Below are positions 1 to 53,830 of a DNA stretch of 64,000 bases, one piece after another. The DNA is from the human T2T-CHM13v2.0 reference genome, Homo sapiens: the NCBI GenBank assembly GCA_009914755.4, contig CP086569.2:26848001-26912000 (forward strand). The letters run 5' to 3'. The notes beneath the pieces are model-generated. The model was not told the DNA's origin. It saw only the letters and a program-made list of their open reading frames with translations, and did not search any database. The translations under genes were made by a program, and so were the position numbers. Position 1 is the stretch's first letter; every line of letters begins with the position of its first letter.

Positions 1-2785
1 ATATTTATAAACTAATGAAATACTTGAAGCCAATTCATGAAGTATTATGACCAAAGTTTCCACAATAAAGATGCTATCTCAGTATCTTCCTGTTCCTATA
101 ACACAATACCTTAGACTGGGTAAGTTATGAAACCAGAAATATGTTTCTTACAGTTTTAGAGGTTGGGAAGCCCAAGGTAAAGGCACTGGCAGGTTCAATG
201 CCTGGCGTAGGCCTAGTTTCTGCTTCCAAGATGGTATCTTGTTGCTGTGTTCTCCAGAGAGGACAAATAAAGTATCCTTAAATGGTGGAAGGGCAAAAGG
301 GCCCAGTTATTTCCATTAAGCCCTTTTATAGGGTTGCTAATTGCACTCTTAATTGCCTCCAGAAGCCCCCACCTTTTAATTCTATCACACTGGAGGGTTT
401 AACTTCCAACATATGAACTCTGGAGGGACACACACATTCAAACCACAGGTATTAAATGTAAAGATCAGAGGCAATATTGTACTATTCATAAAGCCTAGGA
501 ATTTCTGTGTGTTTTTATGTTCCGGGAGAAAACTGAAATGTGCCGGCAAAAGATGACCTCATTTTACAGATGGCAGTCCTTCACTGGAGAGGAAAGAAAA
601 TAGCTTAATCTTTAAAGAGTAGGCCTGGAGTTAATCAATATGATAGGTTATACTCATTTAAAATTTAGGAAATATAAGCTTAGAAAAACAGCTCTTTTTA
701 GTGTAATGAATGAGAAATTCTGTGACTGGAGAAGCTGTCGAACATCTTCATTGATTCCAGAATCATCTTCTCTAAAACAGATGGGCATGAAAGCACAAAA
801 TACACAAACACATTTATAAAACATTTTAAGTGTTTAAAAATGCAGTACTATAATTCCATCGTGTATGCCAGTGAACTAATTTTTAAAATTGGAATCATTG
901 CTATCATCAATGGAAAACAAATAGGTCATCTCAATGAAGGAAGTGATTAATTTCCCTCAAGTGTCCTGTGCTTCAGATTTGAATTAACCAGGAATCTAAG
1001 GAACATTCATATGTTGCTGTAATTCAAGCAAGACTTAGCAGGTCTATTAATTGGACAGATAAATTTATCTGCTAGGCCAGAATCAGAATATAGAAGGGAA
1101 GCAGAGAACCAGAGGAAGGAGGGAGGCAATGTATGCCCCTGGAAGCAACCTTGGACTGGCAGCCACCTTCACTGTTTGGTTCTTCTACAGCCAACTAGCT
1201 GACATTGACAGCCTCTTATTTCAGCTCTTTTTTAAATTTATTATTATTCTTAATTTTTTGTTTGTGTTGAAACTGAGTCTTGCAAATGGACGGCAGCCCT
1301 TCTTAGAGTTTCAGCGATTACTCTGATGTGGATCCTTTCCATATCTTTTACTCCACTCCTGATCTCTATACCTAGCCTCCCATCCACATTTCTGATAGTT
1401 TCTTTCCATACACATGTAGAAACTCCACAGCACCAGCTTCATCCCAGGAGTGATCATCCCAGTCCTTCGCTCATGAGCCATCTTCCATCCACCCAGTAAC
1501 TAGCCCTGGCACATTCACACTCTCTGTCCTGTGGCTGCAAGAGGGGTCTTCCTCATCATCTGCCTGGAATACTGAAACAGCCCTGTCAAGGCTCTCTGTG
1601 AATTCAGTCTCTGCCTGCGAGAAACCTGTGGTCATCTGCACCAGGCATTCCCTGAGGGGAAGATTGTATCTCATGTACAGTGTCTCTGCTCTGGTAGAGT
1701 CCAATGCCATGGTATTCTGGGCTCTGATAATCTGCCTTTTTCTTTCCAGATTGATTTCACATAACACCACCAACATTGTACTACAAATGTTTCATCTGTA
1801 CCAACCCATTTTCTGGGGTCTGACTATGGCTGTAGCTTCCTTGCTTGGCATTTGCCTTCACTATCTCCTCAGCTGGTGACATTTCCATTCTGTCATAAAG
1901 GGTGATATGCTGTTGGAGACCAAACTGAAATTCCAACTCTTCCTTATTTCTGAAGTGAAAAGTAATCACTCCAGCACATTAATTGTGCAATATCTTGTAC
2001 CTGCTTCTTGAAAATATACACATACTTGTTTCTTCTGTTTCTATCTCTTCCAGGGAAGGCCCATATTTCAACAAATTGTCTGTTCCCTCTGCATCATGGC
2101 ACGGGTCCCTACATCTCAAATGTTTAAATAGACCTCATTCTCAGAAACAATTATGCTGACCTTTCTCTTCCAGTTCTACCCATAACCTATTTTTTTATGA
2201 GTAAGCAATGCAAATATACAGAAGAATTTATAGGTTCACCAGAGGGTCATGAACCTTTTTGCTCTGCCTTGTTCTAAAGTCATCAGCAGGGACTGAGTTA
2301 GTTTCAAAAACAGGAGAAAAGCAACACAGTTTTTTCTCTGTCTCCACCCACCATCTCTTCTCAATCCTTCTCATGAAATTAAAATACCTTAAGAGACAGT
2401 TAATCATTTCTGCAAGTAGAAAGGCAACTTTCTGTGTGCTAGAAGAACAAGAAGAAAAAAGTTACTTATAAATGAGATTGCTTTCTTATATGAAATAGTA
2501 ATTTCAAGATAGTAATATTATTTAAGCACCTCTTTATTAAGGAAGAAAGGAAGCAAAACTACTTCACTGCTCTGGTTTATATTTTGTACCTACGTGGTGG
2601 AATACTGAAACCTCTTTGGACACAACGGAAAGAAATGAAGTATGTCCATTGTGCCCCTTGCATCAGAGAGAGCATATTTCAGCCTTTTCAATTTCCATTG
2701 AGGCTAGAAGAAGTGAAATGATGAATATAAAAAATTCTCAGTAACACCAATGTTACTCACTATGCTGCTTAATAATGTTTTTTTA

Positions 2786-2786
<1 letters not shown>

Positions 2787-2831
<45 letters not shown>

Positions 2832-2832
2832 G
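2787..2832. repeat. (ATT)n microsatellite (degenerated A-rich tail of the adjacent minus-strand Alu)
   Basis: 'attattattatt...' x ~15, directly abutting the Alu body. Confidence 0.9.
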
Positions 2833-3084
2833 AATCTCACTCTTTCACCTAGGCTGGAGTGCAGTTGAGCAGTCAGCTTAATGCAACCTCCACCCCCTGG
2901 GTTCAATTGATTCTCCTTCCTCAGCCTCACAAGTAGGTGGGATTACAAGCCCATGACACCATGCCTGGCTAATTTTTGTATTTTTAGTAGAGATGGTGTT
3001 TCACCACGTTAGCCAGGATGGTCTCAATCTCCTGACCTCATGATGCACTCATCTCAGCCTCCAAAAGAGCCACTGCACCCAGTA
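2833..3084 (-). mobile_element. Alu (minus strand), present in copy A only
   Basis: Reverse-complement Alu body 'ggctggagtgcag...cctcagcctc...ggattacaag...' ; the paralogous position in copy B (~23745) has no Alu. Confidence 0.9.
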
Positions 3085-3707
3085 AATAATTTCTAAATCC
3101 AGTATTATAATCTACATTCCACCTCAGAGGCAGAACACCAAGTTATTCAGTTGAATTCCTTTATCTTATTACCTTGTTTCAGTCCCTTTCCCAGGTCTGT
3201 GACAAATGGCTGCCGGTCAAAACTCCCTCTTGTAGCCATGGCCCCTACTCATCTGCTTCAGCCCAACTCTACTACAGTCTTGGGTAATGGTTTGCTGACC
3301 ATCTGCCTCAGTGTCTAGAAATTCAGGATGACACGAGCTTGGTTTGATTCACTGTTGTATGATCAGCCCCAAGGAAACTGCCCAGCAGAGACAGGCTCTA
3401 GATCAGGTCTTACAGAGTGGTTTCCAAAACGCATTTATTCTGGAATAAGCAAAATCAAACTTCTCAAAATCCCTTGCCTCTTTAAGTAATTCTATATGTT
3501 ACTGAATGCCATGACTATACCCAAGAAACTGCTAACCAGACATTTTGGAAATATTTTTAAGATGTATTTCCAATGTTTGGGAGGGAGTAAGAGGTGGCTT
3601 TCCTTGAGAAAATTACTTTCATATTTGAGGATGAAATACTTTGGTCCCAAAAGAAAAGAGCCTGGCTGTTTGCTCATCCCTGAAACAAAGGACAAAGCTC
3701 CCACTCT

Positions 3708-4232
3708 TGTGGGAATTAAGGGACAGGAGAGACCAATGGGTGGAACAGGAGGATTTTATTGGGCGTACGTTGACTTAGCGGAATAACATTTAAAGACTGA
3801 GCCCTGAACAAAGATAGGGCTTGACTTTCATACATGCAACTGAAGAGGGTTGGCAGCTAATGGCATGAAATCTGCAGGATGGGCAAGCAAGCTTATAGGA
3901 GTAGAATGAAGAGAGTTTTTAAAAAAAAGTGACAGGTGTTATAACTCAGGCATGTATCATGACTTTCAATAATATATGGATGGGAAAACAGAAACCTACA
4001 AAATTTTTGTCAACTTCCAGAAGTAGTTATAAAAGTATATGTGAGAGCACATCAAAGAATAATGGTATTGGGTGAGAGTACTAGAGAGGGGAAACAGATA
4101 AGAACGTGTTATTTTCACTCCTGCTCCTGGAACCCATTCTTTACAGGCCCCATCTCTGCTGATAGTGCTATCAGAGCCCCAACAGGGCCTGGCTTATCCC
4201 TGGGTTTTTGGAGTGAGTCAGCTCAGTACACA
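3708..4232 (-). mobile_element. ERV1 3' LTR (~525 bp; begins TG, ends CA)
   Basis: Start 'tgtgggaattaagg...' is homologous to the 5'-LTR remnant at 12414 and to the ERV2 LTR starts. End '...cagctcagtacaca' is homologous to the ERV2 LTR end '...gatagctacaca'. It is followed by a pyrimidine run (4238-4255), the reverse complement of a polypurine tract (PPT). Confidence 0.75.
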
Positions 4233-4429
4233 GAATATGTTTTTTTTTTTTAACATTCCCTGTTTCATTTCCACCTTTCATGCTTTTTGTAAATGAGGAT
4301 TAATAGAGAGAATCACCTAGTAATTCTTCAAGGGGGAGCAGTTCCCTATTTGGCAGGGGTTGATGTTTAGTTAGAGCCATTAGTTGAGTAGTCGTGTGTT
4401 TGTTTACAAGAGCCTCTATGGCTGCTTGA

Positions 4430-7000
4430 ATGTTTTTAACAAGGAGGGTAAGAGACAAATTAGAACAAGGCAGAATCCTAGTATGGCTAGAACTATTTTT
4501 ACTAAGATCTTAAATTCTTCAAAGGATGAAAATAAGCCCCCAAAGAGGGAAACTGGAGACTACCCTTTAAAAGGCTGGACTGTAACATGGGCCAATTTTT
4601 GGATTTTGGAAGTTGTATTCTTAATGATCTTTCTAGGCAGCATTTAGTTAGATTGAACTTTCCACATACCCTTCCTTCCTGGACTAGGAAGTAGTTTAAA
4701 GACAGTCTATTTCGATGAATAGCATTCTTCATTTTTGTGGCTTGTTGGGCCTGCAGATTTAGGGTCTTTGCAGTGTTATTAGTAATAATTTTCAGCACTG
4801 CCTGTAACCTTATGTTGTGGTAGAATATGTAAATAGGAGTGCAGTATCCCCAAATTCCATTTTCTGTCCAGGTGGCTGAGCCATGGTGTTGGAATTTTTA
4901 GGGGGTCATTAATTGTTTTACCAATTTCTTATGGTTATGTCTTTTGTTTGTTTGTTCTGTATTTGTTTTATAATAGACCGGATACCCTAAAGGTCCTCCC
5001 TGTCCTAAGGCGATTAGAAAGGAGACAGCCTAATTTTTTCCAGTACACTGGCCCCTGACCATTTAGCCAGCAATGGGCAATATGCCCATGGCCCACAGAT
5101 CCAGTAGAGCTCAGAGGGCACCTGACGGGTATTAGGAGCGTTAAGTTGGTACAAAGAATGCTTTAAAGAAGGGAATCAGGAGAATGGGCCTGGTTGGGGC
5201 AGTTTGGAATTATTTTTACCACAACATACAGTTTTTCCTACTGTTTTATTGTAATATTATTGTTCTAGGCAAGTTGACTTTCCTACTGGGCCTGTAAGGT
5301 TTTTCTCCAACAAGAAATGCATAATATTCTGATAATGGAGGTCTTTAAGAATCAGATGCTCTGGCTTGTGAACACAGGTTCAGGGGAAGAGACAGTAAGA
5401 GTGAAGTTATCTTGGGGCATTAGCTTTCTTGCCTCCCATGGCCATTGGTGTCCCATGTTGGTCCAACCACAAACATAGCATGAGGAGATATGTAGGCTGC
5501 TGGCTATGTTTTCAGCCAGTTGAATATACATCAACTGAATAGGCTTCCATATACTTCAACTGAATAGGCTTCTGGCTAAGAGAGAGGGTTCAAACAGTTC
5601 CTGGTTGAAATTTTTACAGAATGATTTTAAAACAGAGTTTTCAGGTGTAACCATCCGAGATTTCTTGATAATATGTAAATAGGCTTTTGAGTCTGTTTTC
5701 TGGCCACTAACTTGTATTCCTAGAGGAGCCTTTAAACTTGTAGCCCATACAGCCAGATACGGTTTTAAGGTACTGAGATTTTCCAGGTAGCAAGTGCTTG
5801 CCTTACAGTTTGTTTTTGCTGTAAGTATGACTCACCCCAGTGATTGCAGGTTACAGGACTGAATTATGCAGTTCCAGCAAATTGTCTCTGAGAAACTGGC
5901 AAAGAAAGCAAGGGGTGAACATATATTTTTGTGGCAACTATTATAGTGCTCTTCAGAATTAGAGATTATGGGAAAGGTTGAGCCCATGGATGTTAACTGG
6001 CATATATTAAAGGATAAGGACATAACTCCCCAATGGGAGGATGAGACCTTGGTTTGGTGTAGCAGGTTTCCTTCTATTGACCCATGAATTTTAAAAGAGG
6101 TCTCAGGTAGGAATTTGGGGTTATAACACATATAAGTCTAGCCATTTCCTGGGTCACAGACTGAGTAGTTTCGTTGTGAGTACAAGTTTCTAGGTGGGTC
6201 CCTGTACACTTTTAATAAGTGTGATATAACAGGGTTTTGGTTATGGTGCTCCCTGACCATATTGTTAGTGCAGTGTGGGCACTCTTCTCTGGTCTCCTTT
6301 TCTGAAACAAATAAGGGGAGTATTATAGTTAGGAGGAAAAGAAGTGGGCTTAGCTTTCCTATTGCCTGGAATAGGAAATAAGTAAAGAGTAACATGTTTA
6401 TACCAGGGAGGAAAAGAAGAAGTTTTTACACAGGGGAGGAGGTTGAGCAAAGTGAGAGAACAATAGTAAAACAATGATTGGATTTAAGATTTTTATCACT
6501 ATTTTATTATATTTTACTCCAGCTTCAAACGTACGTACAGTAGTCAGCTTCCAGGATGACTACAGCAGGGCTGTTGACTCCTCAAGTTTTAGCTGAGAAC
6601 AGACTAGTCAGCTTTCGGAATGACCAGAGTAGGGCTTCATCATTTCTCAGGGCAAATAGGTCATAGGATTAGCCAGCTCAGATGGTCTGGGTCATGTTTG
6701 CTGGTCCACTTGTCTTGGGCTGCAAGTTTTAGTTGACTGTGGTGGATCCAACGCACAATTTCTGCAATGTTAACAGCAGTGGAAGTGGACAAGGTTGCAG
6801 GATGGGGCCCATCCCATATGGGTTCTAGAGTGGTTGGATTTTATTTCTGACCTACACAGAGTCCCCAGGTCTAAAGTGGTGTGCTGTGTTTGTTGGGCTT
6901 ATGGACAATCTTTCCCATACCCAGCCATGGACCTCTTGCATGGCTCTCTTTAACGCCTGCCTTTGCCTTCTTAAAGTTAATTCCCTAGTTTGCAAAGTTC
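4430..7000 (-). pseudogene. ERV1 env (SU+TM), disrupted by stops and frameshifts
   Basis: ORF 4502..4798(-) carries the TM immunosuppressive-domain-like motif. ORF 6138..6395(-) carries 'NYSVCDPGNG' (SU). No single intact frame. Confidence 0.65.
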
Positions 7001-9995
7001 ACCCCTAATTTGAGCTATGATTGGGGATGGCCAGTGGAAAATAGTCCCTGAACTGTCTCGGTCACAAATTTCAGTCCATTTTCTGACCCTAGAGTTAGAG
7101 GCATTCTCAATCTGGGGATATCGTCTCTTAACAGTACTTCTGTTACTTCTCATGATTTCTCTGTTAGGGTGGGGAAAGCCTCAACTCATCCTGAAAAGGT
7201 ACAGAAAATCACCAGTATGTACTTACAGCCCACTGATTGGGGCATCTCAGTGAAGTTTCTAAGAAGGTTTTCACAGGGTGTGGCTCCCATTTCCTGAATT
7301 CCCAGGGGCCAAGTGGGCCCTTGTCATGGAATGTTCTGGGCACAAGTTAGACATTGTTTGCAGACAGATCAAGTGATGACAGTGAGCTGTGGCACATAGA
7401 AATGGTGTCCTAGCAGTGTTTTCAGTGACATTTTTCCCATGTGGGTTCCTTGATGGAATTGTTTTACAAATTTTGGGGCCAGCATTTCGTGGTTGGCTAG
7501 CCTCCTATTGGAGAATTTTCACCGTCCCTTTTTATATATTTTCCAGACCCTTGGGAAAAGCAGAGCTTCTCATTTGGAGGTAACTTGAAACCTCTGAGAG
7601 GTGCATATTTGGGAGGAGAGTCAGCTATGGCTGTCTGTCTGTCTATGGGTAGTCATTGCTGCCCCTTTTGCATACCTGTCTACCTTTTTGTTCCTTTTGG
7701 CCTCCAGTGATCCTGGCTTTTGGTGCCCCTTGCAGTGCATAGCAGCTGTCTTCTTTGGAGTCCATACAGCATCTAAGAGTTGCAGAATTTTTTCTTTGTA
7801 CTTTTTTTTCTTTTTGGCCCACCGCAGTTAAGAATCCTTTTTCTTTATATATAGCCCCATTATCAGGCAGCGTGGCAAAAGTATACTTGGAATCAGTATA
7901 AACATTGGCCATTTTACGTTTTGTCAGCAGAACGCTCTCATTAGGGCTATTAGCTCTGCCTTTTGGGCTGATGTTCTGGTGGGCTGAGCTTCTACCACTG
8001 AATCTAATGTTATCACTGCATACCCAGTTTCACGGACCCCTTTCAGTATATAGTATTTACCATCTGGGTCCCAGAGGGGTTGCTCTATAAGGTCTTTCTG
8101 GCTTGAGAATACATCATCTACTGTTTCCACAGAGTCATGAAGGAGGACCCCTGGTTTGACTGGGACTAAGGTAGCCAGGTTAAGGGTGTTTATTATTTCC
8201 AAAGTTATGTCGGGATTTTTGCATATGAGCCCCTGGTACTGAGTCACTCTTGGATTTGATAACTAATAGTGCGCTGTCTAATCCATTAAAGTTAGAACTG
8301 ACTGTGGTATACCCAGATGGTCAGCTGTTGTCTTAGAGCTAGTTTTCTATCTTGTTGTTCCAATAGGGTGGTGTCAGCTAGTGCCCTAAGGCAAGGAGGC
8401 TATGCTAGGGCCAAGGAGTTCAATTGTGTGGATAAGTACATCACCGGGCGAATTCATGATTTCACAACTTGGGTCAGGACACCTATAGCCAATCCCTTTT
8501 ATTCATGGACATGTGGAAAGAAAGGCTTACTTATATTTGGCAGTCCTATGGCTTGGGCCTGTGTTAAGGCTTCTTTGGCTTGTTTAAACACCTTCTTTTC
8601 CTGGACAGCCTCTCAAAGGAGGGGTTTCCTTTCCCCTCTCTTTGTGCCTTTATATAAGGGCTTGGCAATTAGTGAGAAATTTGGGACCCAGATACAGCAG
8701 AACCCTGCATTCCCCAAGAATTTTCCCATTTGGCACTGGGTGGTTTGAGTTGAGAGTGCATAAAGACATGGCTTTTGCTCACTGCTGAGCTGGTGTTCCC
8801 ATTGGCTTACTATGAAGTCCAGATATTTGACACTTTCTTGGCAAATTTGGCCTTCTTTCTGAATACGTTATAACCAGTTTTCCATAAAGGAGATGGAGGA
8901 AGTCTTGGATTCCTTGGTATCTGCCCCCTGGGGTTGGGGCTGCTAGGAGAAGGTCGTTTATGTATTGTAGCAAGGTGTAGTTGTCATTTGGTGTGGTGAA
9001 GGCCTTGATGTCTGAGGCCAGTGTGTCTCCAAAGATTGTAGGAGTGTTTTTGAATCTTTGTGGGAGTCTAGTCCATGTGAGCTGCTCCCCTGTGCCTGTG
9101 ACTCAATCGTCCCATTGAAATGCAAAGATGGGCTGACTAATTGGTGCCAGGCACAGATAGAAGAAAATATTCTTTAAGTCTAGTCAAGTAAATCAGGCAG
9201 CACTTGCCAGAATGAATCTTATTAGCATGTACGGATTTGGTATCACCAGGTGGAAGGTTACAGTAGCCTGGTTCATTTCATGTAAGTTTTGCACTGGTTT
9301 AGATTTACCAGACTCTGTATTTTGTTTTGGTAGCAGTGGAGTGTTCCAGGGTGACTCACACCAGACTACCAGACTAAGATTCTGTGTTTGAAGGGTCACT
9401 TTAAATGTTTGTGAATACCCCGCGTGTCTTCTCAGAGAAATAGGTATTGGTGAACCTGAACTGGAGTTGCTCCTGGTTTTAGCTTTACTATTATCAGTGC
9501 CTGATTTACAGCCTTTACAGCCAGGCTCAGTGGGTTATTGTTAGCCCATACTCCAAAAATTTTACCCAGTAGTGTAAACACTTTCTCCAGCCCTGGCTTA
9601 TGAGACAGTTCTGGTGACTGTTTTGTCTATACTCTTCATTCCTCAGCCTGCAGAATAATGAGGGTTAACACCATGACCTTTGGGTGAGTTAGGCTTAAAG
9701 TTATATCCTCGTGTGGCCCAAAAGAAATCTGTGCTGTCAGTTTCTGGAGCAGATCTCTTCCATGTAGGGGATCTGAGCAACTTGGGAGGTATAGGAATTC
9801 ATGTTGGACTTCTTGTCCCTCTATGACATACCTTCTAGGCCAGCAAGATGGCCTCCTTTCTGGATCCCTTGTAGCCCCAATAATAGTTGTATCATGTTTA
9901 GATAGTGGCCCTATGGGCTGTGTCACTACTGAGTGTTTAGAGCTGGTGTTCACCATAAAGTCCATCTGTTGCTCCCCTACTTCTACTGTGATCAT
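7000..9995 (-). pseudogene. ERV1 pro-pol (protease, RT, RNase H, integrase N-terminus), fragmented
   Basis: ORF 9636..9995(-) 'TTIIGATRDP...LHGRDLL' (protease). ORF 8779..8973(-) 'LQYINDLLLAA' (RT YXDD box, YIND here). ORF 7924..8247(-) '...TSAQKAELIALMRA' (RNase H). ORF 7643..7912(-) 'VYTDSKYTFAT...' (RNase H end into integrase). Confidence 0.8.
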
Positions 9996-9999
9996 GGGC

Positions 10000-11740
10000 T
10001 CCTGGGGACTTGGGAGATGGAGCCCGGTCTTGCATAGTCTTCCTATTTTTCGGTCTCTGCCAGCCCAATTAAGTTGATGCCTGGCTCCCTCATGGTGTGG
10101 TGGTCCTTGGCTGGCTGTTTGATAGTTTTGTGTCCTCTGTTATTTCTTTTACTACCCTCTAAACACTTATTTTTCCAGGGACCCCCTTTTTTTGCAGTGC
10201 AAATATTGATCTCTATCTAGTCTCAGCTGACTTTTGGGTCTCTGCCCTGCTTGGCCCCTTCCACATCTGAGTCTGCATCTGCATCTGCTTGTGATGATAG
10301 CTTCCCTTTCCATGAGGGCTGCCACTAGTAGATCGGCCTTCTTCCTGAGTCTCCAATCAGCCTCACTTTGTGCTTTCTGGTCACAGTTAACATACACCTT
10401 CGTGGCCAATTCTGAAAGCTGGGTGGCATTCATGCCTGCAAAACCATCTAGCTTTTGCACTTTTCATCTTATGTCCCCCTGGGCTTGTCCTACAAATGCT
10501 GCATTTACTATCTGCTGGTTCTTATCCTTGGGGTCAAATGGAGTGTAAAGCCAGAATGCCTCAAACAGTTTCTAATAAAACTTGCTAGGGCTCTCGTCAG
10601 TTTCTTGAAGCACTTCTGAGATTTTTTCTATATTGATTACCTGTTTTCTGCCTTCCTTTAGCCTTTGCAAGAGTGGTTTTCAGTATGCCTGCAGATGCTG
10701 AAACTGGTCAAATCATCTGGGTCCCAGTGGGAGTGTGCTTCTGGGAACTGGACCTGAGAGTATGCCTGGAAATTAAATGTGCCTTCTGGCACATGGGCTT
10801 CTGGCCAGTTGAGGGCTGAATGAGCCATCCTTCCATGCTCTTTGGTGTTAAACAGCATCAGGAGAAGATGTTTACTATCTGGACAAATTGAATTATGTGT
10901 CTGGAAAATGGACTGTATCAGATCTATGAGGGCCAGGGGCTTCTTCATGTAGGAGAGAATATGGTGTTTCCAGTTAGGGGATCAGTGATTGAAATAGGCT
11001 GGTAGATAAGGGTCCATTTCCCCCCTTACGTATGGCCATATTCATCAAAGTAGAGGCCTCCCCAAGTCTCCTTGAAAGGCATCTGCAGAACCAGGGCATG
11101 GCCATAGCAGAGGCAGCTCACTTGATTATTCTGACACTCCTCCTTGACCTCCTGGGGCAGGGGCTCTGATTTCTCCCTTTGGGGTGAAACCCAGGGTGTG
11201 TCACCATCTGAATTTGACTCCTCATGGGCCATTGGCCTTGGTAAAAGGGGGCTAATTGGGGTATAGGGAGGAGGGATTTCTGTCTCTTCTGGTGGTTTCC
11301 ACAAAGCCAGTTTTTCTTGCCCTTCTTATGGCTTTCCCTTTTTCTCCATTGCTGCTGGTGAAGCTGATTCCTCTTTCACTTTAGGCTCAGCTTGAGCAAC
11401 AAGCGTTTTGCAGTAAGCCATCAGGAAAGACTGTAGCCATGCTGGTTGGGATGATATTTAGCCATAAGTCAATATAAAAAAATTGGTCTGGATACCCTGG
11501 CTATTCTCTGACCCCAGTCACCACTTGATGTGCATGGTCAATTATTCCCCATCTATTGTTCCTTCAGCTGGCCACCCAACACTAAAATAGGGCTTCTCTA
11601 TTTTACAAAGACTCTTTTACCTCTGGGGAGTCGACTTGATACTACAATTCCCAGTGTAACATTTCTTAAACTTTTTAACGTGTATTCTAATATGGTGGGT
11701 TTTGACAACTTCCCTCACATCTCCTCCCAGTTATAGTGTC
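10000..11740 (-). pseudogene. ERV1 gag (MA / p12 with PPPY late domain / CA / NC Cys-His box), fragmented
   Basis: ORF 11026..11304(-) 'PPPYTPISPLLP' (L-domain). ORF 10658..10948(-) capsid-like. ORF 10167..10460(-) 'RDQYLHCKKRG' zinc-knuckle-like. Confidence 0.7.
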
Positions 11741-12390
11741 ATACACTTACTCTTTTACTTTTGCTTCAGAATGATTAGACCACCTCTCCTGTGGGAGTAT
11801 TTCAGATGATGCTTAGCTTTAATGGATGGTTTGTATAACCCCTGAACCCAGACCACCACAATCACTAAATTGTGTGGTGCCTGACTAAGCCATATGTGGT
11901 AGTTCCGGAGGACATATGCCAGTAATCCTGGTTGGTCCCACACTTCACTTGGGACATATGGTCTATGCTAAGAGACTTGCAGCCCCACATACATCGCCCT
12001 ACTCTTGCACATGCATTCACACAGTTTCCACTCTCAGTTCCTCTTCAGAGGTTATGGTGTAGGTTTCATCTGAATTAGAGAGCAAATCTTGTGTCCTGAT
12101 TTGGATAACTAGATACGCACTGGGAGGTGATCAGACTCCCATTCCATCTTTATGGTATGGGTCCTTCCTTGGGCCCCAAACCTTCCCATGGTTCAGCAGC
12201 ATGCTGTCCCTGGAATTGTCCTGTAGCCCCTTAAGTTCCATTGTGCTTTCGGGGGGTGCACAGGGTCACAGGACATCTGGCCTCTCTTTCAGGTTGAAGT
12301 TCTTCTGATGGTGCACCTGGGGTCACAGGTCTTTCCTGGCCTGGAGCTCCAGTCTGACAGGCAAAAGAAACAGCATACCTGTTGTCTCCA

Positions 12391-12408
12391 ATCCTGGATG
12401 AGCTCCCA
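12391..12408 (-). promoter_or_regulatory. ERV1 primer-binding site (read on + strand as a tRNA 3' end: 'atcctggatgagctccca'), tRNA-Arg-like
   Basis: Has the shape of a tRNA 3' end (T-stem, acceptor stem, discriminator, CCA). It is separated by 'gaaaa' from the LTR start 'tgttgcagg' at 12414. It is positionally equivalent to the ERV2 PBS, which matches tRNA-Arg at 16/18. Confidence 0.55.
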
Positions 12409-12413
12409 GAAAA

Positions 12414-12537
12414 TGTTGCAGGAATTAAGGAATAGTAGAGACCAGTGGGTGGAAAAGAAGAATTGTATTGTGTGCACCCTGATTTAACAGATTAACATTT
12501 AAACACTGAGCCCCAAACAAAGACAGGGCTTGACTTT
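12414..12537 (-). mobile_element. ERV1 5' LTR remnant (only ~120 bp, the PBS-proximal end; the rest is deleted)
   Basis: 12414-12537 is homologous to 3708-3835; homology stops abruptly at 12537. Confidence 0.65.
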
Positions 12538-14063
12538 TGAGTAGCTTGGATATTCTCTCTAGAAGTGTTCTTTGGATTTGTGTGTTGGTAGGTCATCCTC
12601 TTCTGGTTCATTGACTGGGAGAAAACAGTATTTCCTTGAAGCCCTTTTTATCTGTGCCTATTGGACTTTGTCAATTAGAAGCTTCTACAGTCCATCATCT
12701 GGGATACATGAAAGACCTAAAAATCCCAGTAAATTTACATACTGTCACTCTTCAAGTTGTGAAGTCCCTAGAGAAAATGTCTTTCTCTTTCTACTTTTCA
12801 GAGTCTGTGTTTCCCTTCTGACATTATGTCAGAAACATTGGTGTGTTGCAGTGTAACTGGGAATTCTAAAAAGTGAAAGTTATAGAAAGGCTTTTAAAGT
12901 ATCATGCAAAGAAATCATAGGAAGATAATATTACAGAGAATGGCATGATTAGATATACCTACAATGAACTGATTGTATAAAATAAAGTTTTCACCAAAAT
13001 TAAATAATCTCAAAGAAGTTTTTATAATATATGTGAAATATATGTGAAATAGCCAATGATTTATAGCATATAAATAATATAGGACAGTGAAGAAAAGATA
13101 GAATACCTTCCATACACTTGGAAAAATAATACCATTGGCAATGTTTTCAGAAAATGTAAGCAAAAATATGTCTTGCTTCAACTGCAGAAGGGATATAGTA
13201 ATAACACCTTTCTCAGAGGTTTTCTTTGTTAAGTAACAAGTGATTTGATAGAAATCAAGCACTTATTTCTAGCTCTCTGGAGCAAAGTGAAAATTTGCAA
13301 AAGCAACTCTCATGACACCCAGAGACTATAAGTGTAAGACAAAATTATTTTTTAAAAATTCAAACTCACTATCAAGAAAAACATCATTTCTGAGGTTTGG
13401 ACTCCAATAATATTGGTTGAGATTAACCTTAGTAGTTTGTTGAAGTAGTCAATTGAAGAGTAAAGTTGGATATACTCCCAGGAAAGAAACCATTTCTTTG
13501 TTCAAGAGGGCTGGACCCCCTGCCTAAATCATTGGTGAAAGTTCATATTGCTCAGACATTTAGTGGGAACATTTGAGTCAATACTGAAAGCCATGCCCAC
13601 AGATACTGGGATCTAACACAGAATGAGGTTTTTACTCAAAGCCATGACTTAAAATTTCATATCTCAACCTCTATCCAGTGTGATATTCTAGACTGAAGAG
13701 ATGATTTTCATATTACCTGAAAGATACAACTACCTTAAAATAAGAAACTGGAATAAAATACTAGATTGAACAATTAAGTTCTTAAAAACCTGAAAAGATT
13801 AACATAAAACTGCCCACCCACCAATAATAACTTTACATTTAAAAGGTTAACTTTCATTTACCACTTCAAAGACAACATTGCAAAATCAATGTTGGAAGTT
13901 CCATGCCCTAAGAGATAGTCAAGATGCTTAGGGGTCACCCTCAAAAATGAAAAGTTAAATCAAAAGAGTCTTCATAATAACTAGGGTTAGGTGTTTTTGG
14001 GGATGAAGAAATGGAATCTAAGGGAAAAACAAGTGGGTAACAGGATACAAATTTTTTAAATAG

Positions 14064-14414
<351 letters not shown>

Positions 14415-17400: not shown

Positions 17401-18949
17401 ACTTGTGATTTGGCTGTTTCCTGGATTTGAGAGCACCACATGTGCAGAAATGTACTCAAAATTAAGAAAGGAAGTACAATTTTATATGGATGCTATTAAA
17501 TTTGAACATCAAGTATCACATGTATCAGTGGGTTTTTCTTTTTTTTTATTTTTATTTTTTTGGTTACTCTATAAAAATGCCTGTTTGGGATTTTTTAATT
17601 TTAACTGAGAGAAGTTCTCTTCTGTATAGAACAAATATTCCAAAATAGTTACGTGTTTTGTTTTCCTGTTGCATGACAAAATTAACTATTATTTCCAGCA
17701 ATGGTGGTGCCTTCAGAGTCCAGTATTGCAGAAGATGTAGTGCCTCAAGTCTAATTTTAACTTTCTAATTCTGGTAGCTATTGTCAGAAACTTTTGAAAG
17801 CTTTGTTTATGTAGCCTTATTTTTTATGTAAAGAGAATTAAATTTTGCTATGTATAATTTTTTGTAATCTAACAGTTAATCCACATTGTCAATCAGTGTC
17901 AAGGGCTTCCTATTGTTCTACTCAAGTGTTACAATAAGTATTTGTAGATAATAGTTAATCCTTGTCTATGCTTATTTTAAAGATCTATATTGGTGAAAAT
18001 AGTTGTGGATATATTAAGAGAAATGAAATAAAAGTATAGCTTCATTCACTTGCCTTTTTACTTTATACAAATCTTATCTTTCTTTTTCCCTAGTATGCTG
18101 TGACTTTTGAATAATGTGCGTAGTAAAGATTTCACACTGGTGTGGTAGTCAAGTCTGTGAGTGCTACTTGGTTTATTTCTGGAAAATTTTCTTCAGCCAT
18201 TTAAGAAAATATTATAATCTACCGGGCTGTACTGGGTATAAAAGTGCCAAAAGCACTTCTGTAGTTTTCTGTATATAGTAAGTACTTTCCTGACTAGTTT
18301 TGAAACAAATAAAAGCCACCTACCTATGAGATTAACAAGGCTTAAACTTGTGCAAATTACAAGCAATCAGTGCCCATGTGTAGTTGTTTATTTTTCAAAT
18401 CGATGGTATAAAAATTGAAAGATTTACTCAGAAATATAGAGCAACCAGTTCTAACAATTACTCTCTAGAGTTGCAGAGCTAAATATGTTACTCAGAGTAT
18501 TATTATATAATGTTTTTCAACTCCTTATTTGTCAATATAATTCTGAATTTGGATTGTCCGCATCTGACCTTTTTTAGTGAGGCCTAGCCTTTGTCACTAT
18601 TGACACATGCCTACTCTTCATTGAGGTGCTGACTCTGGATCATCATCCTTTATTCATACATGACAGAAAAACAGTCAACAGTTCAATTAGTGTGCTATTT
18701 GTCACCTTCCTTTCTTCCTACTTTTAAGTAGCATTTTGTGCAATTATTTAAGTCACATGAATAGACAGGAAACTAAATAATACATAGATGTGATCACAGG
18801 CAGCCTCTAAATTATCCACAGTGATTCTGCCAAAAAACCTAGGACAATCTACAGGTTTCAGTAGAGATTTTTTTTTCCAGTTCTGCATTGTAAACGTTGA
18901 TTTTTAGAAAATAAAAATGAAATCAATTGTAAAGAAGGAGCCGTGTGTT

Positions 18950-21900
18950 TTAAAATTAATGAAACACTTGAAGCCCATTCATTAAGTATGAGGACCAATG
19001 GTTCCACAATAAAGATGCTATCTCAGTACCTTCCTGCTGCAATAACACAATACATTGGACTGGGTAACTTATAAAACCAGAAGTAAATTTCTTACAGTTT
19101 TAGAGACTGAGAAGTCCAAGATCAAGGCATTGATGGTCTCCATGTCTGGTGAAGGCCTGGTCTCTGCTTCCAAGACGGCACCTTGTTGCTGCCTTCTCTA
19201 GAGAGGACAAATACAGTGTCTTCTAATGGTGGAAGGGCTAAAAAGCTTTGTTAGTTCCATTGAGTTCTTTTATAAGGTCGCTAATTGCTCTCTTATTTGC
19301 CTCCCAAAATCTTGAATTTTTACTTCTACCATTCTGGGGTGTTTAAATTCCAACATATAAATTCTGGAGGGACACAATTACTAAAGCCACAGGCATCAAA
19401 TGCAAAGACCAGAGGCAATATTGTACTATTTCTAATGCCTAGAAAAATCTGTATTTTAGTGTTCAGGTAGAAAACAGAAATGTGCTGGGAAAAATGGCCT
19501 CTTGTTTTACAGAAGGCAGCCCAGCTCTTCAGAGGAAAGAACACAGCTCACCCTTCCCAAATATAGGCCTAGATTTGACAAATAAGATAGGTTAAACACA
19601 TTTAAAAATTTGAGACCAAAATAAGAATGTTTTTTAAAAAGAACAGCTCCTTTTAGTGTAATGAATGAGACATTTTATGACTGGAAAAGGGGTTTCACTT
19701 GACTCGATTATTCTTGGTTCATACACTATAGTATCAAATGCAATTAGGAAAAAACAAATACACTGGATTACACAGTGATTTCTATCGAGAGTTTTGTCTG
19801 ATGACAGAGAAACATTTACAAAGGGGTAAATGTTATGTATCTTCTCATTATATTTGCAATAGAAGCTGGAGAGCAAACCTGGTTTTCAAGAGTGATCTGG
19901 TCCTTCATGAGAAAATCCTGTTCAATTACCAAAGGGGAGACAAAAATTAAAACGTAAAAATTTTGAAAATTTGTGTCAGATTTATTTGGTATCTTTGTAA
20001 TGTTCTCAATTTATTTTCTGGGGAGTTTCTGGTCTTGCTTATCAATTATATTAGGATCAATTTCACAAGTTAGAAAATCCAATCCTTTCTTTTTATAGTC
20101 AGTAATTCTGACTGATTCAATAACTTCTTACAGGCAACCTCAAATTTCTAACCATTTCTTTTGGCTGAAAAAATAAGCAATTAACCGTTCACACATAAAA
20201 CACAGTGTGGGGAAACCAAGTCCATTTCAACTTTGTCACTAGATTGAAGCATGTCTATAGGGAGCCTTCCTGAATCACCTTTCTTGAGCTCTGATTACCT
20301 GGGGGAAAGGGAAGAATTTTGAAATTAGGTATGCATTAATTTTATGAAATACTTGGCTAAGAACCATTTTTGAAACATACATGTAATTTGAAAGCCTAAA
20401 AAAGCAGTGATTTATAAACACAAAATTTAGCAAGCACATCAAAATAAACCATAAGGTATGCATTTAACACCATGATGCTTCTGACATATAAAATATTAAT
20501 GTCAGTACTAATGTCCTTGTTATATGATAATAGTTTTTTTTCTCTTGGTCCTAAAACAGTGAACCACCCTACCTTACAAATTTTGACAAACTAAAATCTC
20601 TTAAATATTTTATCTTAAGAATGAAATATTTTATCTTAAATGTTTATCGGAAGAGTAATACCTTTAAAAGACTCGAGGTTCCATCTGAACTTTCGATTTT
20701 TTATGCTTTTCACCTTTTTGTCTTCAACGGAGAAGAAAGATTACTTGGATGTGCATTCTTGTTTCGAGAAGTAAAAATAAACCACAGAAGCCCTGTGTGT
20801 CCCCGCCCACAGTGTGTGTGCCAGTGAACTAATTTTTCATAATGGAAGTCATTCCTATCATCAATGGAAAACAAATAGATCATCTCAATGAAGGAAGCCA
20901 TTAATTTCCCTCAAGTGTCCTGCGCTTTAGATTTGAATTAACCAGGAATCCAGGGAACATTCTTATGTTACAGTAATTCAAGCAAGACTTAACAAGGTTG
21001 TTAAGTGGACAGAGTAATCCATCTGATAGGACAAGAATCAGAATACAGATGTGAAGAAGAGAACCTGAGGAAAAAGGGGTGCAGCATACGCCCCTGGAAG
21101 CAAACTTGGACTGGCAGCCATCTCCACCTTTGGGTTCTTCTAGTACCAGCTAGCTGACACTGACAGCCTCTTCCTTAAACTCTGATTTCAAAGCAACATT
21201 CTGAAGCAAAGCACAGTCTACTTTTTTACAGCCTTATTTAAGGATCAGATGAGAATGCACAAAAATTACCTTCAAAAACAACCATTTACTACCAAACTCC
21301 TAAGCTGCATATTCTACACAGCATTTCTCACTGCTTGTAAGACAAGAAGAGGACAGGGATTCCTTTTCGGGCACCTGCCACTCCTCTGAATTTGGACACT
21401 AATTGACTCCCTTCACTCACCTCAATGTAGTTACTAAAGGTGAACAATGCAGCAACTTGTACAGAGAATTAAGTCATAATTATTACCCTTTCTTGATCCA
21501 GTTTTTCTAGTTCCCTCTGTTCCCTTTCTAAAATGTAGGTTACTCTGCCTTTTTTTCTTCTCTCTGCCTTCATTCTTTCACTTGCTGTTTCCACATTTTT
21601 TTCTTCTTCCTTTTGTTCTTCAATTTCTTTCTGATCTAGATCTAATAGAACAGAAAATAAAGAATTGCTGCCTGTATCACATTGTTCAAATGAATGCAGG
21701 ACCATTCTGCAGGAGTCCTTGCCAAGATCCGGAGAGACTCTGCTGGGCTTTTGGTTGACATGTGACCTGCTTCAAGTTGCTCTTCCCTGTTCATTGACTT
21801 CAGGCCCCCAATCCCACTCCTTGCCACTGCATTCCACTTCACTTGGCTGAGATGAATACAAGTCACCCTCATCATGGCCGACTCCAACTGACATATCCTC

Positions 21901-24340: not shown

Positions 24341-24521
24341 ACATCTCTCTTCCCATCTCCCTCCATCTCCAGCAAGGAAAGTTGGTAATCTTAAAGAAGG
24401 CTGGAATAAGAAAGTGGGACAGACAAGAGAAGTCTGATGGCCAGTTTTTGTATAGTGCTAAGTTAAACCAGTGTTACAGCTTTTCCAAAAATTGAAATAC
24501 GAAATCTATTTCCCCAATTCC

Positions 24522-27720
<3,199 letters not shown>

Positions 27721-27721
27721 C

Positions 27722-27978
<257 letters not shown>

Positions 27979-53041: not shown

Positions 53042-53348
53042 ACTCCAACTTGGCTGGTTACTGTGGCTCACAACTGTTATCTTAGCACTTTGGGAGGCCA
53101 ATGTGGTAGGATCACCTGAGGTCAGGAGTTCAAGGCCAGCCTGTGTAGCATTGTAAAACCACATCTCTAACAAAATGCAAAAATTAGCCAGGCATCATGG
53201 CGGGAACCTGTAGTTTCTGCTACTCAGGAGGCTGAGGCAAGGGAATCACCTGAACCTGGGAGACAAAGGTGGTTGTGGTGACCTGATAATTACCATGGAA
53301 CTCCAGCCATGGTGACAGAGTGAGACTCCATCTAAAAAAAAAAAAAAA
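53042..53348 (+). mobile_element. Alu (plus)
   Basis: 'ggctggttactgtggctcacaactgttatcttagcactttgggaggcc...gtgacagagtgagactccatctaaaaaaaaaaaaaaa'. Confidence 0.9.
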
Positions 53349-53543
53349 TTCCAGACTTGAGTTTGAATTTTTTCAACCTATTGGAAAGCAAAGTTTCAAA
53401 CTTATACAACTAGATATTCTAGCTGCATACAAATTGACTCTCCTAATTACTATTTACCTGTATTTTCATATGTTCCTAACATCCCTTATGTAATATATGC
53501 TACTTAGTGCTTTAAAATCTCCAGTCCTTTATCTAAAAAAGAT

Positions 53544-53830
53544 TTTTTGACAGGTTCCTGCCCTATTGCCTAGGCTGTAGTGCACTGGCGTGGTCTTGAC
53601 CCACTACAACCTCTGCCTCCTGGCCTCAAGGGATCCTCCTACCTCAGCCCCCCGAGTAGCTGGGACTACAAGCACACACCACCAAGTCCGGCTAATTTTT
53701 TGTGTTTTTTATAGAGATGGGCTTTGTCAAGCTGCTCAGACTGCTCTTGAACCTCTGGGTTCAAATGACATGCCCACCTCAGCCTCTCAAAATGCTGGGA
53801 CTGCAGGCATAAGCCACCACACCTGGTCCC
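53544..53830 (-). mobile_element. Alu (minus)
   Basis: Poly-T, then '...gcctaggctgtagtgcactggcgtggtcttgacccactacaacctctgcctcc...gctgggactgcaggcataagccaccacacctggtccc'. Confidence 0.9.

What the first reader, a model, noticed from the sequence alone, without database searches (positions are those of the whole stretch)
3708..12537. Structurally rich gammaretrovirus-like provirus (ERV1) with a truncated 5' LTR
The minus strand carries, in order: gag (PPPY late-domain motif, capsid, Cys-His box), protease, RT, RNase H, integrase N-terminus, env SU (CDPGN) and env TM with an immunosuppressive-domain-like motif. All are interrupted by stops and frameshifts. The 3' LTR is complete (3708-4232; TG...CA; PPT-complement pyrimidine run at 4238-4255). 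The 5' LTR retains only its PBS-proximal ~120 bp (12414-12537), so the promoter-bearing U3 is gone. The PPPY motif, the gag/pro-pol organisation and the CETTG-less but CKS17-like TM are class I features.
Basis: partly seen in the sequence, partly recalled or inferred. Interest (0 to 1): 0.5.

Follow-up and report, generated by a model that had tools for sequence, protein, structure and literature searches.

The report
Decayed ERV3-type provirus, already catalogued
This is an old, dead copy of an ERV3-type (HERV3 group) endogenous retrovirus that has lost most of its upstream LTR; it matches proviruses already listed in a published human catalogue on the Y chromosome, so it is ordinary.

Summary
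The minus strand of 3705-12539 carries a nearly full-length class I (gammaretrovirus-like) provirus. In order it has a 5' LTR stub, a tRNA-Pro primer binding site, gag (MA, PPPY, CA, one decayed Cys-His box), protease, RT, RNase H, integrase, env (SU and TM), a polypurine tract and a complete 3' LTR. Pfam, profile searches and tblastn against published consensus proteins support every part.

All genes are broken. The protease and RT active sites are mutated, and the integrase core has a deletion of about 70 residues.

The family can be named: HERV3 (ERV3/HERV-R-like, HERVERI supergroup). Env scores best against the HERV3 consensus. The exact 18-nt primer binding site, the chain length, the gene offsets and the spacing to a second provirus all match HERV3 chains 5219/5228/5243 on hg19 chrY in Vargiu et al. 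2016.

Corrections:
- The polypurine tract is most likely 4268-4288 and the LTR most likely starts at 4267. The A-run at 4240-4251 then lies inside U3.
- The LTR ends at 3705.
- The integrase zinc-binding and C-terminal domains are both present.
- A primer-binding-site-like word after the 3' LTR belongs to flanking DNA.

Verdict: already known, low interest.

The parts
12414..12539 (-). 5' LTR remnant (R/U5 end only). It contains a decayed polyA signal, AATACA. Homology to the 3' LTR breaks sharply at about 12539/12540.
   Evidence: Table S1 of PMC4724089 gives a 146-bp 5' LTR for the matching chains.
12391..12408 (-). Primer binding site TGGGAGCTCATCCAGGAT. It matches the tRNA-Pro complement TGGGGGCTCGTCCGGGAT at 15 of 18 positions. 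All three differences are G>A. A 5-nt spacer TTTTC separates it from the LTR.
   Evidence: The tRNA-Pro sequence comes from my own knowledge. The same PBS is typed 'P (AGG)' in PMC4724089 Tables S1 and S6.
10016..11691 (-). gag, with frameshifts and stops. MA 11649-11398, PPPY late domain 11274-11263, CA (p30) 10975-10392, single decayed Cys-His box 10217-10164.
   Evidence: Pfam. tblastn of the HERV3 gag consensus covers aa 15-579 at 66% identity and 734 bits. Motifs.
9549..10139 (-). Protease. A stop-free stretch of 167 codons spans 10139-9639. The active site DTG is mutated to NTS (MDFMVNTSSKHSVV, 9965-9924).
   Evidence: Pfam RVP E=6.5e-8. 80% identity to the HERV3 pro consensus..
6585..9635 (-). 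pol. RT 9213-8929, with YxDD mutated to YIND at 8967-8953. RT-RNaseH connection 8600-8391. RNase H 8040-7657. Integrase HHCC 7482-7333. Integrase core with a deletion of about 70 residues at about 7042. Integrase C-terminal domain 6837-6721.
   Evidence: Pfam. tblastn of the HERV3 pol consensus covers aa 15-1156 at 62% identity, with consensus aa 926-996 missing..
4345..6422 (-). env, with stops and frameshifts. SU carries CDPGN (6158-6144) and CXXC as CYVC (5480-5469). TM carries an ISD and CX7CC (4711-4637), followed by a membrane anchor and a tail. The stop-free TM stretch is 4897-4505.
   Evidence: tblastn scores: HERV3_a 689 and HERV3_b 685 bits, against HERVI_a 521, HERV1_c 453, HERVE_a 281 and HERVT none. 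TM family profile against PDB. Homologues named ENR1, i.e. ERV3-1 Env.
4268..4288 (-). Most likely polypurine tract, AAAAAGCATGAAAGGTGGAAA.
   Evidence: It parallels AAAAGCATCAAAGGGGGGAA|TGAAACAG in the HERV3 consensus. It also parallels the MLV PPT/U3 junction, from my own knowledge. This is inferred, not proven.
3705..4267 (-). Complete 3' LTR. The polyA signal AATAAA lies at 3760-3755. The LTR ends ...CACAAGA at 3705.

Best explanation
This is a fossil provirus of the HERV3 (ERV3/HERV-R-like) group, HERVERI supergroup, class I.

Inferred history:
- A gammaretrovirus-like virus that primed reverse transcription with tRNA-Pro integrated into the germ line of an Old World primate ancestor, roughly 27-58 million years ago.
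- The copy then decayed neutrally.
- A later deletion removed U3 and the start of R of the 5' LTR, together with the upstream flank. The provirus therefore has no promoter of its own.
- Only the 3' LTR is structurally whole.

Shown by the sequence:
- Every gene carries stops and frameshifts.
- The protease (DTG to NTS) and RT (YxDD to YIND) catalytic motifs are mutated.
- The integrase core has an internal deletion.

The locus matches HERV3 chains already listed on hg19 chrY at 24.16, 24.72 and 25.77 Mb. A fourth is probable. These would be near-identical copies produced by duplication of the surrounding Y-chromosome amplicon, not by retrotransposition. The element does nothing as a virus. Any residual activity would be limited to regulatory signals in the 3' LTR.
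For: - Domain order and gamma-specific Pfam families Gag_MA, Gag_p30 and MLVIN_C.
- LTR pair.
- PBS-Pro at 15 of 18 positions.
- Env is closest to the HERV3 consensus and further from the HERVI, HERV1, HERVE and HERVT consensus proteins.
- Identity to the HERV3 consensus is 66% for gag, 80% for pro and 62% for pol.
- TM homologues are named ENR1, the ERV3-1 Env.
- The ISD variant '[12 protein letters not shown]' is listed under HERV3 in PMC4724089. This locus reads [12 protein letters not shown].
- Table S1 of that paper lists HERV3 chains on chrY with exactly this mutated PBS, a chain length of 8857-8858 nt, a 146-bp 5' LTR, 22.7% LTR divergence and an open pro. The element here spans about 8.84 kb (3705-12539), or 8858 nt (3703-12560) once the catalogue's 146-bp 5' LTR is laid from the LTR end at 12414.
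- Stretches of the published HERV3 consensus that are printed in lower case are identical to this sequence. These include 48 residues at the N-terminus of the pro consensus and the 3' LTR end plus 40 nt of flank.
- A second chain in the table starts 32.97 kb away. That position falls at window ~45534, where the gag of the second provirus in the window begins (45537).
- K2P distance between the LTRs is 0.27 over 128 nt, which gives 27-58 My at 5e-9 to 2.3e-9 substitutions per site per year. This fits the 30-40 My quoted for ERV3 (PMC5775217).
Against: - The LTR family (LTR4, LTR61 or LTR76) could not be named, because no LTR library was available.
- No target-site duplication can be checked, because the 5' end is gone.
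- The age rests on about 125 nt of LTR overlap. It ignores the higher male mutation rate and possible gene conversion between amplicon copies.
- Gag, pro and pol were compared only with the HERV3 consensus, not with rival consensuses. That consensus was itself built partly from copies of this locus, which inflates identity.
- Assignment to chrY rests on matching a published table, not on a genome alignment. Naming the amplicon (blue, b1-b4) rests on memory only.
Confidence: 0.93

Rival explanations
1. Tandem or recombinant provirus. In this reading the 'complete 3' LTR' is really a shared middle LTR, followed by the primer binding site and leader of a second, truncated provirus downstream (below 3705).
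For: The 8-mer TGGGAGCT, which is the first 8 nt of the PBS, follows the 3' LTR at 3703-3696. BLAST extended the LTR homology through it (3696-3828 against 12401-12537).
Against: The same word begins a stretch of at least 3.7 kb (4-3704) that is colinear with 18949-24342 at 76-84% identity. In that second copy no LTR precedes it. After the 8-mer the sequence diverges from the PBS and leader. The six-frame translation of 1-3707 has no retroviral Pfam domain. The word is therefore flanking DNA and the resemblance is chance.
Confidence: 0.02
2. Mosaic (non-canonical) provirus. In this reading gag-pol comes from one HERVERI group and env or the LTR from another, as is common among class I HERVs.
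For: PMC4724089 reports frequent env swaps within class I and overlap among HERV3, HERV1 and HERVI. PBS-Pro is the minority type for HERV3, listed as 'R, P, w, e'. Identity to the HERV3 consensus is uneven: pro 80%, gag 66%, pol 62%, env 53%.
Against: Env scores best with HERV3_a/b among six env consensuses. Gag, pro and pol align to the HERV3 consensus end to end. The locus is filed under taxorder 10230 (HERV3), and its sequence appears in the lower-case parts of the published HERV3 consensus. Uneven identity is expected from different consensus quality and different constraint.
Confidence: 0.05

Closest known systems
HERV3 group (ERV3 / HERV-R-like; HERVERI supergroup; Repbase HERV3-int with LTR4/LTR61/LTR76), specifically chains rvnr 5219/5228/5243 on hg19 chrY in Vargiu et al. 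2016 (PMC4724089)
   Same: The gene order is the same. There is one zinc finger. The ISD is of the type [23 protein letters not shown], matched here at 17 of 23 positions. The PBS is Pro. Env, gag, pro and pol align to the HERV3 consensus. The exact PBS string, the chain length, the stub size of the 5' LTR and the neighbouring chain all match the catalogue rows.
   Different: Nothing of substance. The LTR subtype was not determined here. It was also not determined which of the near-identical Y copies the window represents.
ERV3-1 (HERV-R) locus at 7q11.21, the founding member with an intact env ORF
   Same: It belongs to the same group. The TM and ISD are closely related. The age is of the same order, 30-40 My, and the distribution is Catarrhini-wide (PMC5775217).
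   Different: It is a different locus. Here env is broken: the catalogue lists 5 stops and 6 shifts, and the longest stop-free stretch is 131 codons. The PBS here is Pro, whereas Arg is the majority type for the group.
HERV-I / HERV15 (RTVL-I), HERV1 and HERV-E, the sister groups in HERVERI
   Same: They share the class I organisation. They share SU motifs (CDPGN or CSPGN, and SSCYVCGGT) and a TM with YQNRLALDYLLA...CGKFNLTNCC.
   Different: Their env consensus scores against this locus are lower: 521 bits for HERVI_a, 453 for HERV1_c and 281 for HERVE_a, against about 687 for HERV3.
Murine leukaemia virus (exogenous gammaretrovirus)
   Same: Both use a tRNA-Pro PBS, a PPPY late domain, MA/p30 Gag, one Cys-His box and an MLV-type integrase C-terminal domain. 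Both have a PPT followed by TGAAA..., and an Env with CXXC in SU and an ISD plus a Cys motif in TM.
   Different: TM has CX7CC instead of CX6CC. The TM profile scores higher with filovirus GP2 than with MLV or XMRV TM. The HERVT (MLV-like) env consensus gives no hit. The copy is dead.

Membership tests
Class I (gammaretrovirus-like, ERV1) endogenous retrovirus | Gag of MLV type: p15 matrix, p30 capsid, one Cys-His box in NC | tested here: met
   Pfam Gag_MA E=9.6e-5 and Gag_p30 E=3e-15. One decayed box, DRDQYLHCKKRGSLEK.
Class I (gammaretrovirus-like, ERV1) endogenous retrovirus | pro-pol order PR, RT, RNase H, IN, with an MLV-type integrase C-terminal domain | tested here: met
   RVP, RVT_1, RT_RNaseH_2, RNase_H, Integrase_H2C2 and MLVIN_C are colinear on the minus strand.
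Class I (gammaretrovirus-like, ERV1) endogenous retrovirus | Gamma-type Env: CXXC in SU, and an immunosuppressive domain plus CX6CC-like motif in TM | tested here: met
   CYVC at 5480-5469. [25 protein letters not shown] at 4711-4637. The spacing is CX7CC, as in the HERVERI consensus. The TM profile hits GP2 and syncytin-2. Five of the 7 aligned TM sequences (all paralogues; this copy scored none) hit PF00429, best E=0.018.
Class I (gammaretrovirus-like, ERV1) endogenous retrovirus | LTRs flanking PBS and PPT; 4-bp target-site duplication | tested here: inconclusive
   LTR pair, PBS and PPT were found. The duplication cannot be checked because the outer end of the 5' LTR and its flank are deleted.
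HERV3 group (Vargiu et al. 2016, taxorder 10230) | Internal proteins most similar to the HERV3 consensus | tested here: met
   Env: HERV3_a/b 689/685 bits, against 521, 453, 281 and 0 for HERVI, HERV1, HERVE and HERVT. Gag 66%, pro 80%, pol 62% identity to HERV3. Gag, pro and pol were not compared with rival consensuses.
HERV3 group (Vargiu et al. 2016, taxorder 10230) | ISD [23 protein letters not shown]; one zinc finger; PBS R or P | tested here: met
   The ISD matches at 17 of 23 positions. The paper lists the variant [12 protein letters not shown] under HERV3. There is one Cys-His box. The PBS is Pro.
HERV3 group (Vargiu et al. 2016, taxorder 10230) | LTR of type LTR4, LTR61 or LTR76 | not testable with these tools
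   No Dfam or Repbase LTR library was available. The published HERV3 chain consensus contains this LTR in its lower-case tail, which is circular.
HERV3 group (Vargiu et al. 2016, taxorder 10230) | Listed as a HERV3 chain in the hg19 catalogue | tested here: met
   The exact PBS string, the 8857-8858 nt length, the 146-bp 5' LTR, the sub-gene offsets and the neighbouring chain at 32.97 kb all match rvnr 5219/5228/5243 with 5221/5230/5245. No genome alignment was possible.
ERV3-1 env gene (7q11.21) | Intact env open reading frame at the chromosome 7 locus | tested here: not met
   Env here is split over three frames with several stops. The locus matches chrY chains.

The most novel reading that the evidence does not exclude
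The structurally complete 3' LTR, present in three or four near-identical copies in the Y-chromosome ampliconic region, might have been kept as a working promoter, enhancer or polyadenylation site for testis-specific Y transcripts. Alternatively, the stop-free protease stretch of 167 codons might be translated. Nothing in the sequence argues for either. The stretch has a dead active site, and one open segment of that size is expected by chance in a provirus of this age.
Probability: 0.03. Interest if true: 0.3.

Novelty: already known. Interest (0 to 1): 0.07.

Why it matters
It matters little. The human genome holds about 40 ERV3-like elements (PMC5775217), and ERVs are known to pile up on the Y chromosome. 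This copy is already in a published hg19 catalogue, where its truncated 5' LTR, its PBS type and its stop and shift counts are recorded. The useful outcome is a clean annotation with corrected boundaries, a family name, and the recognition that the window is Y-ampliconic DNA. That last point explains the density of ERV and L1 fragments and the internal duplications in the window.

Tried and rejected
- Tandem-provirus idea, prompted by TGGGAGCT after the 3' LTR. Rejected: the word belongs to a 3.7-kb flank that has a paralogue at 18949-24342 without an LTR. The flank has no retroviral domains.
- Search for the missing U3 of the 5' LTR elsewhere in the window. Nothing was found above noise. 12538-14110 is unique in the window.
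- Pfam on env pieces directly. There was no TLV_coat hit. A single-sequence PDB search with TM was only marginal, GP2 at E=0.043. A profile of paralogues was needed.
- The first protein-database search with the TM stretch returned only unnamed contigs, probably human contamination. The profile search gave the ENR1 names.
- Literature search for the ISD string gave one 1993 paper, and its held text did not contain the passage. That lead was not usable.
- Rfam over the whole window found no family.
- The start of the 3' LTR could not be settled. Alignment with the second provirus and the published consensus 5' region did not resolve it.
- The second provirus's own LTR pair covers only about 380 nt, so it could not serve as a ruler.
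Full report

Yes. Within 3000-13500 the only direct repeat of at least 40 nt is 3707-3828 against 12416-12537, at 81% identity without gaps. With gaps the match is 78.8% over 137 nt, with E=5.6e-27 against the whole 64-kb window. The homology breaks sharply at about 12539/12540.

The rest of the 3' LTR (3829-4267) has no second copy anywhere in the window. The sequence 12538-14110 is unique in the window. The 5' LTR was therefore shortened by a deletion, not split by an inserted element.

I translated the minus strand in three frames, masked the stops, and scanned Pfam (MLVIN_C again). The hits are colinear:
- Gag_MA 11649-11398
- Gag_p30 10975-10820 and 10700-10392 (E=3e-15)
- RVP 10004-9726 (6.5e-8)
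- RVT_1 9213-8929
- RT_RNaseH_2 8600-8391
- RNase_H 8040-7657
- Integrase_H2C2 7482-7333
- MLVIN_C 6837-6721 (2.9e-6 alone)

- PPPY at 11274-11263
- a decayed Cys-His box, DRDQYLHCKKRGSLEK, at 10217-10164
- CDPGN at 6158-6144
- an immunosuppressive-domain and cysteine motif, [25 protein letters not shown], at 4711-4637

**2. Env needed extra work.**

Pfam did not hit any env piece. The TM stretch alone gave only a marginal PDB match, filovirus GP2 at E=0.043. A database search found paralogous copies at 64-78% identity.

A profile of these paralogues hit filovirus GP2 at E=4.5e-7 and syncytin-2 at E=6.5e-4. It also gave weaker, non-significant matches (E 0.03-0.16) to ASLV TM, XMRV TM, HERV-T Env and syncytin-1. 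Five of the seven aligned TM sequences touched PF00429. This is the retroviral and filoviral class I fusion subunit.

A profile search of the large protein database returned 806 relatives. The named ones are called 'ENR1 protein' or 'Envelope glycoprotein'. ENR1 is the UniProt mnemonic of the ERV3-1 Env; that point comes from my own knowledge.

**3. Which family?**

Vargiu et al. 2016 (PMC4724089) describe the HERVERI supergroup, which contains HERV-E, Harlequin, HERV3, HERV1 and HERV-I. For HERV3 they give:
- ISD consensus [23 protein letters not shown]
- PBS types 'R, P, w, e'
- one zinc finger
- LTR4, LTR61 or LTR76

They list the odd ISD variant '[12 protein letters not shown]' under HERV3. 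This locus reads [12 protein letters not shown].

I ran tblastn with their env consensus proteins against the window. The summed scores over 6422-4345 were:

| Env consensus | Bits |
|---|---|
| HERV3_a | 689 |
| HERV3_b | 685 |
| HERVI_a | 521 |
| HERV1_c | 453 |
| HERVE_a | 281 |
| HERVT_a | none |

The HERV3 consensus for the other genes aligns as follows:
- Gag aligns over aa 15-579 at 66% identity.
- Pro aligns over all 193 residues at 80% identity.
- Pol aligns over aa 15-1156 at 62% identity.

Consensus pol residues 926-996 are missing at about 7042. This is a deletion of about 70 residues in the integrase core. By my reading of the consensus, it removes the region that holds the catalytic Glu. 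It explains why Pfam's integrase-core model was silent.

**4. The locus is already catalogued.**

The PBS is TGGGAGCTCATCCAGGAT at 12408-12391. It matches the tRNA-Pro complement at 15 of 18 positions, and all three differences are G>A.

Table S1 of PMC4724089 contains exactly this string in HERV3 rows (taxorder 10230) on hg19 chrY:
- rvnr 5219, 24158855-24167712
- rvnr 5228, 24719829-24710972
- rvnr 5243, 25768147-25777005

The occurrence count suggests a fourth row. Each row lists '5LTR PBS MA CA NC Prot RT IN TM PPT 3LTR'. Each has a 146-bp 5' LTR, 22.7% LTR divergence and a length of 8857-8858 nt. The stop/shift counts are gag 2/6, pro 0/0, pol 12/13 and env 5/6.

If the 146-bp 5' LTR is laid from 12414, the chain runs 12560-3703. 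That is where the LTR ends here. The gene offsets also fit: gag 11552-10190, pro 10174-9674, pol 9673-6620 and env 6022-4316.

Lower-case stretches of their HERV3 consensus are identical to this sequence. Examples are the first 48 residues of the pro consensus, and the 3' LTR end plus 40 nt of flank.

There is also an independent check. The table has further HERV3 chains on chrY (rvnr 5221, 5230, 5245) starting 32,968-32,974 nt from the first set. In window coordinates that is about 45534. The gag of a second provirus in the window starts at 45537.

I therefore take the window to be human Y-chromosome ampliconic DNA. The Alu elements agree with a primate origin. That the coordinates lie in the AZFc region, and probably in the 'blue' amplicons, is recalled from memory and was not tested.

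**5. Boundaries and corrections.**

- Aligned to the 5' copy, the 3' LTR ends ...TTCCCACAAGA at 3705. The 5' copy ends ...TTCCTGCAACA at 12414.
- A better PPT is AAAAAGCATGAAAGGTGGAAA (4288-4268), followed by TGAAACAG at 4267. This parallels the HERV3 consensus AAAAGCATCAAAGGGGGGAA|TGAAACAG and the MLV junction (own knowledge). The LTR would then be 563 bp.
- I could not settle this boundary. The second provirus aligns through the whole region, and the published consensus 5' end is flank-contaminated.
- The polyA signal AATAAA lies at 3760-3755. In the 5' stub it has decayed to AATACA.

**6. State of the genes.**

- All reading frames are broken.
- The protease active site reads NTS instead of DTG, at 9965-9924.
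- The RT motif reads YIND instead of YxDD, at 8967-8953.
- The integrase core is deleted internally.
- The only sizeable open stretch is 167 codons over the protease. My rough estimate, not a formal test, is that one such open segment is unremarkable in an 8-kb provirus of this divergence.
- Rfam finds nothing in the window.

**7. Age.**

The K2P distance between the LTR copies is 0.27 over 128 aligned nt (p=0.22). This gives 27-58 My at 5e-9 to 2.3e-9 substitutions per site per year. That range agrees with the 30-40 My and the Catarrhini-only distribution reported for ERV3 (PMC5775217). The estimate is weak, because it rests on about 125 nt, a Y-linked mutation rate and possible conversion between amplicon copies.

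**8. A rival that I tested and dropped.**

The 3' LTR is followed by TGGGAGCT, which is the first eight bases of the PBS. This suggested an LTR-int-LTR-int tandem.

However, the stretch 4-3704 is colinear with 18949-24342 at 76-84% identity. In that copy the same word is preceded by unrelated sequence. The stretch also has no retroviral domain in any frame. The word is therefore flanking DNA.

The homology between the two copies stops exactly at the provirus. This is what one expects if the provirus inserted into one copy and the other flank was later lost with the 5' LTR. That last step is inference.

**9. Mechanism.**

Shown:
- a class I provirus with a tRNA-Pro PBS, a PPT and an LTR pair
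- loss of U3 of the 5' LTR
- inactivating changes in every gene

Inferred:
- germ-line integration in an Old World primate ancestor
- neutral decay
- deletion of the 5' LTR promoter together with the upstream flank
- multiplication to three or four copies by duplication of the surrounding Y amplicon, rather than by reinfection

The element has no viral function. The only conceivable residual activity is regulatory use of the intact 3' LTR, for which I have no evidence.

**10. Verdict.**

The element is a member of the HERV3 group and is already catalogued. Novelty: already known. Interest: low.

Noticed in passing
window 41227-46737 (minus strand): A second, related provirus lies 29 kb away in the same orientation. 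Its LTR pair is 41227-41605 and 46354-46737, at 76% identity. It has gag 45537-44196, pro 44258-43721 and pol 43759-41969, then a deletion of integrase and env that leaves only the env tail at 41884-41777. Nucleotide identity to the first provirus is 63-67%. Amino-acid identity to the HERV3 consensus is 47% in pro and 54-56% in gag and pol. It corresponds to chains rvnr 5221/5230/5245 in PMC4724089 Table S1. Its exact group (HERV3, HERV1 or HERV-I) was not resolved.
   Followed up: partly
window 35693-36575 (plus strand): An env SU fragment at 35693-36461 matches the HERV-I env consensus best: 53% identity and 297 bits, against 169 bits for HERV3_a. It is joined directly to an LTR-end-like piece of about 100 nt at 36474-36575. 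It is a third HERVERI remnant, embedded among L1 fragments.
   Followed up: partly
window 4-3704 and 18949-24342: A stretch of about 3.7 kb is colinear with a 5.4-kb stretch 19 kb away, at 76-84% identity and interrupted by insertions. It has no Pfam domain in any frame. The homology ends exactly at the 3' LTR of the provirus, so the second copy looks like a paralogous pre-insertion site. Whether it is a segmental duplication or a non-coding repeat family was not decided.
   Followed up: partly
window 24522-27723, 31150-33510, 37248-41039: There are several L1 ORF2 fragments, 84-94% identical to one another, in direct and inverted arrangement. They include a partial tandem duplication (25195-26451 against 26381-27644), an open 317-codon piece of the ORF2 C-terminal region (26317-27270, minus strand), and an RVT_1 hit at 38278-38880.
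   Followed up: partly
They show that the window is primate DNA. 53063-53817 forms an inverted Alu pair.
   Followed up: no
protein P0001 (metagenome contig) against window 4505-4732: A 154-residue predicted protein from an 897-nt public contig is 100% identical to the TM stretch. It then reads on into L1-like sequence at the point where the window has a stop codon. It is either another amplicon copy with a different structure or a chimeric assembly of human contamination.
   Followed up: no
TM family profile (alignment A3) against PDB: The HERV3-type TM profile scores clearly higher with marburgvirus and ebolavirus GP2 (E=4.5e-7 to 1e-4) than with any retroviral TM in the PDB (syncytin-2 6.5e-4, XMRV 0.07, MoMLV 0.7). 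This is a known kinship, but the ranking is striking. The cysteine motif here is CX7CC, not CX6CC.
   Followed up: no
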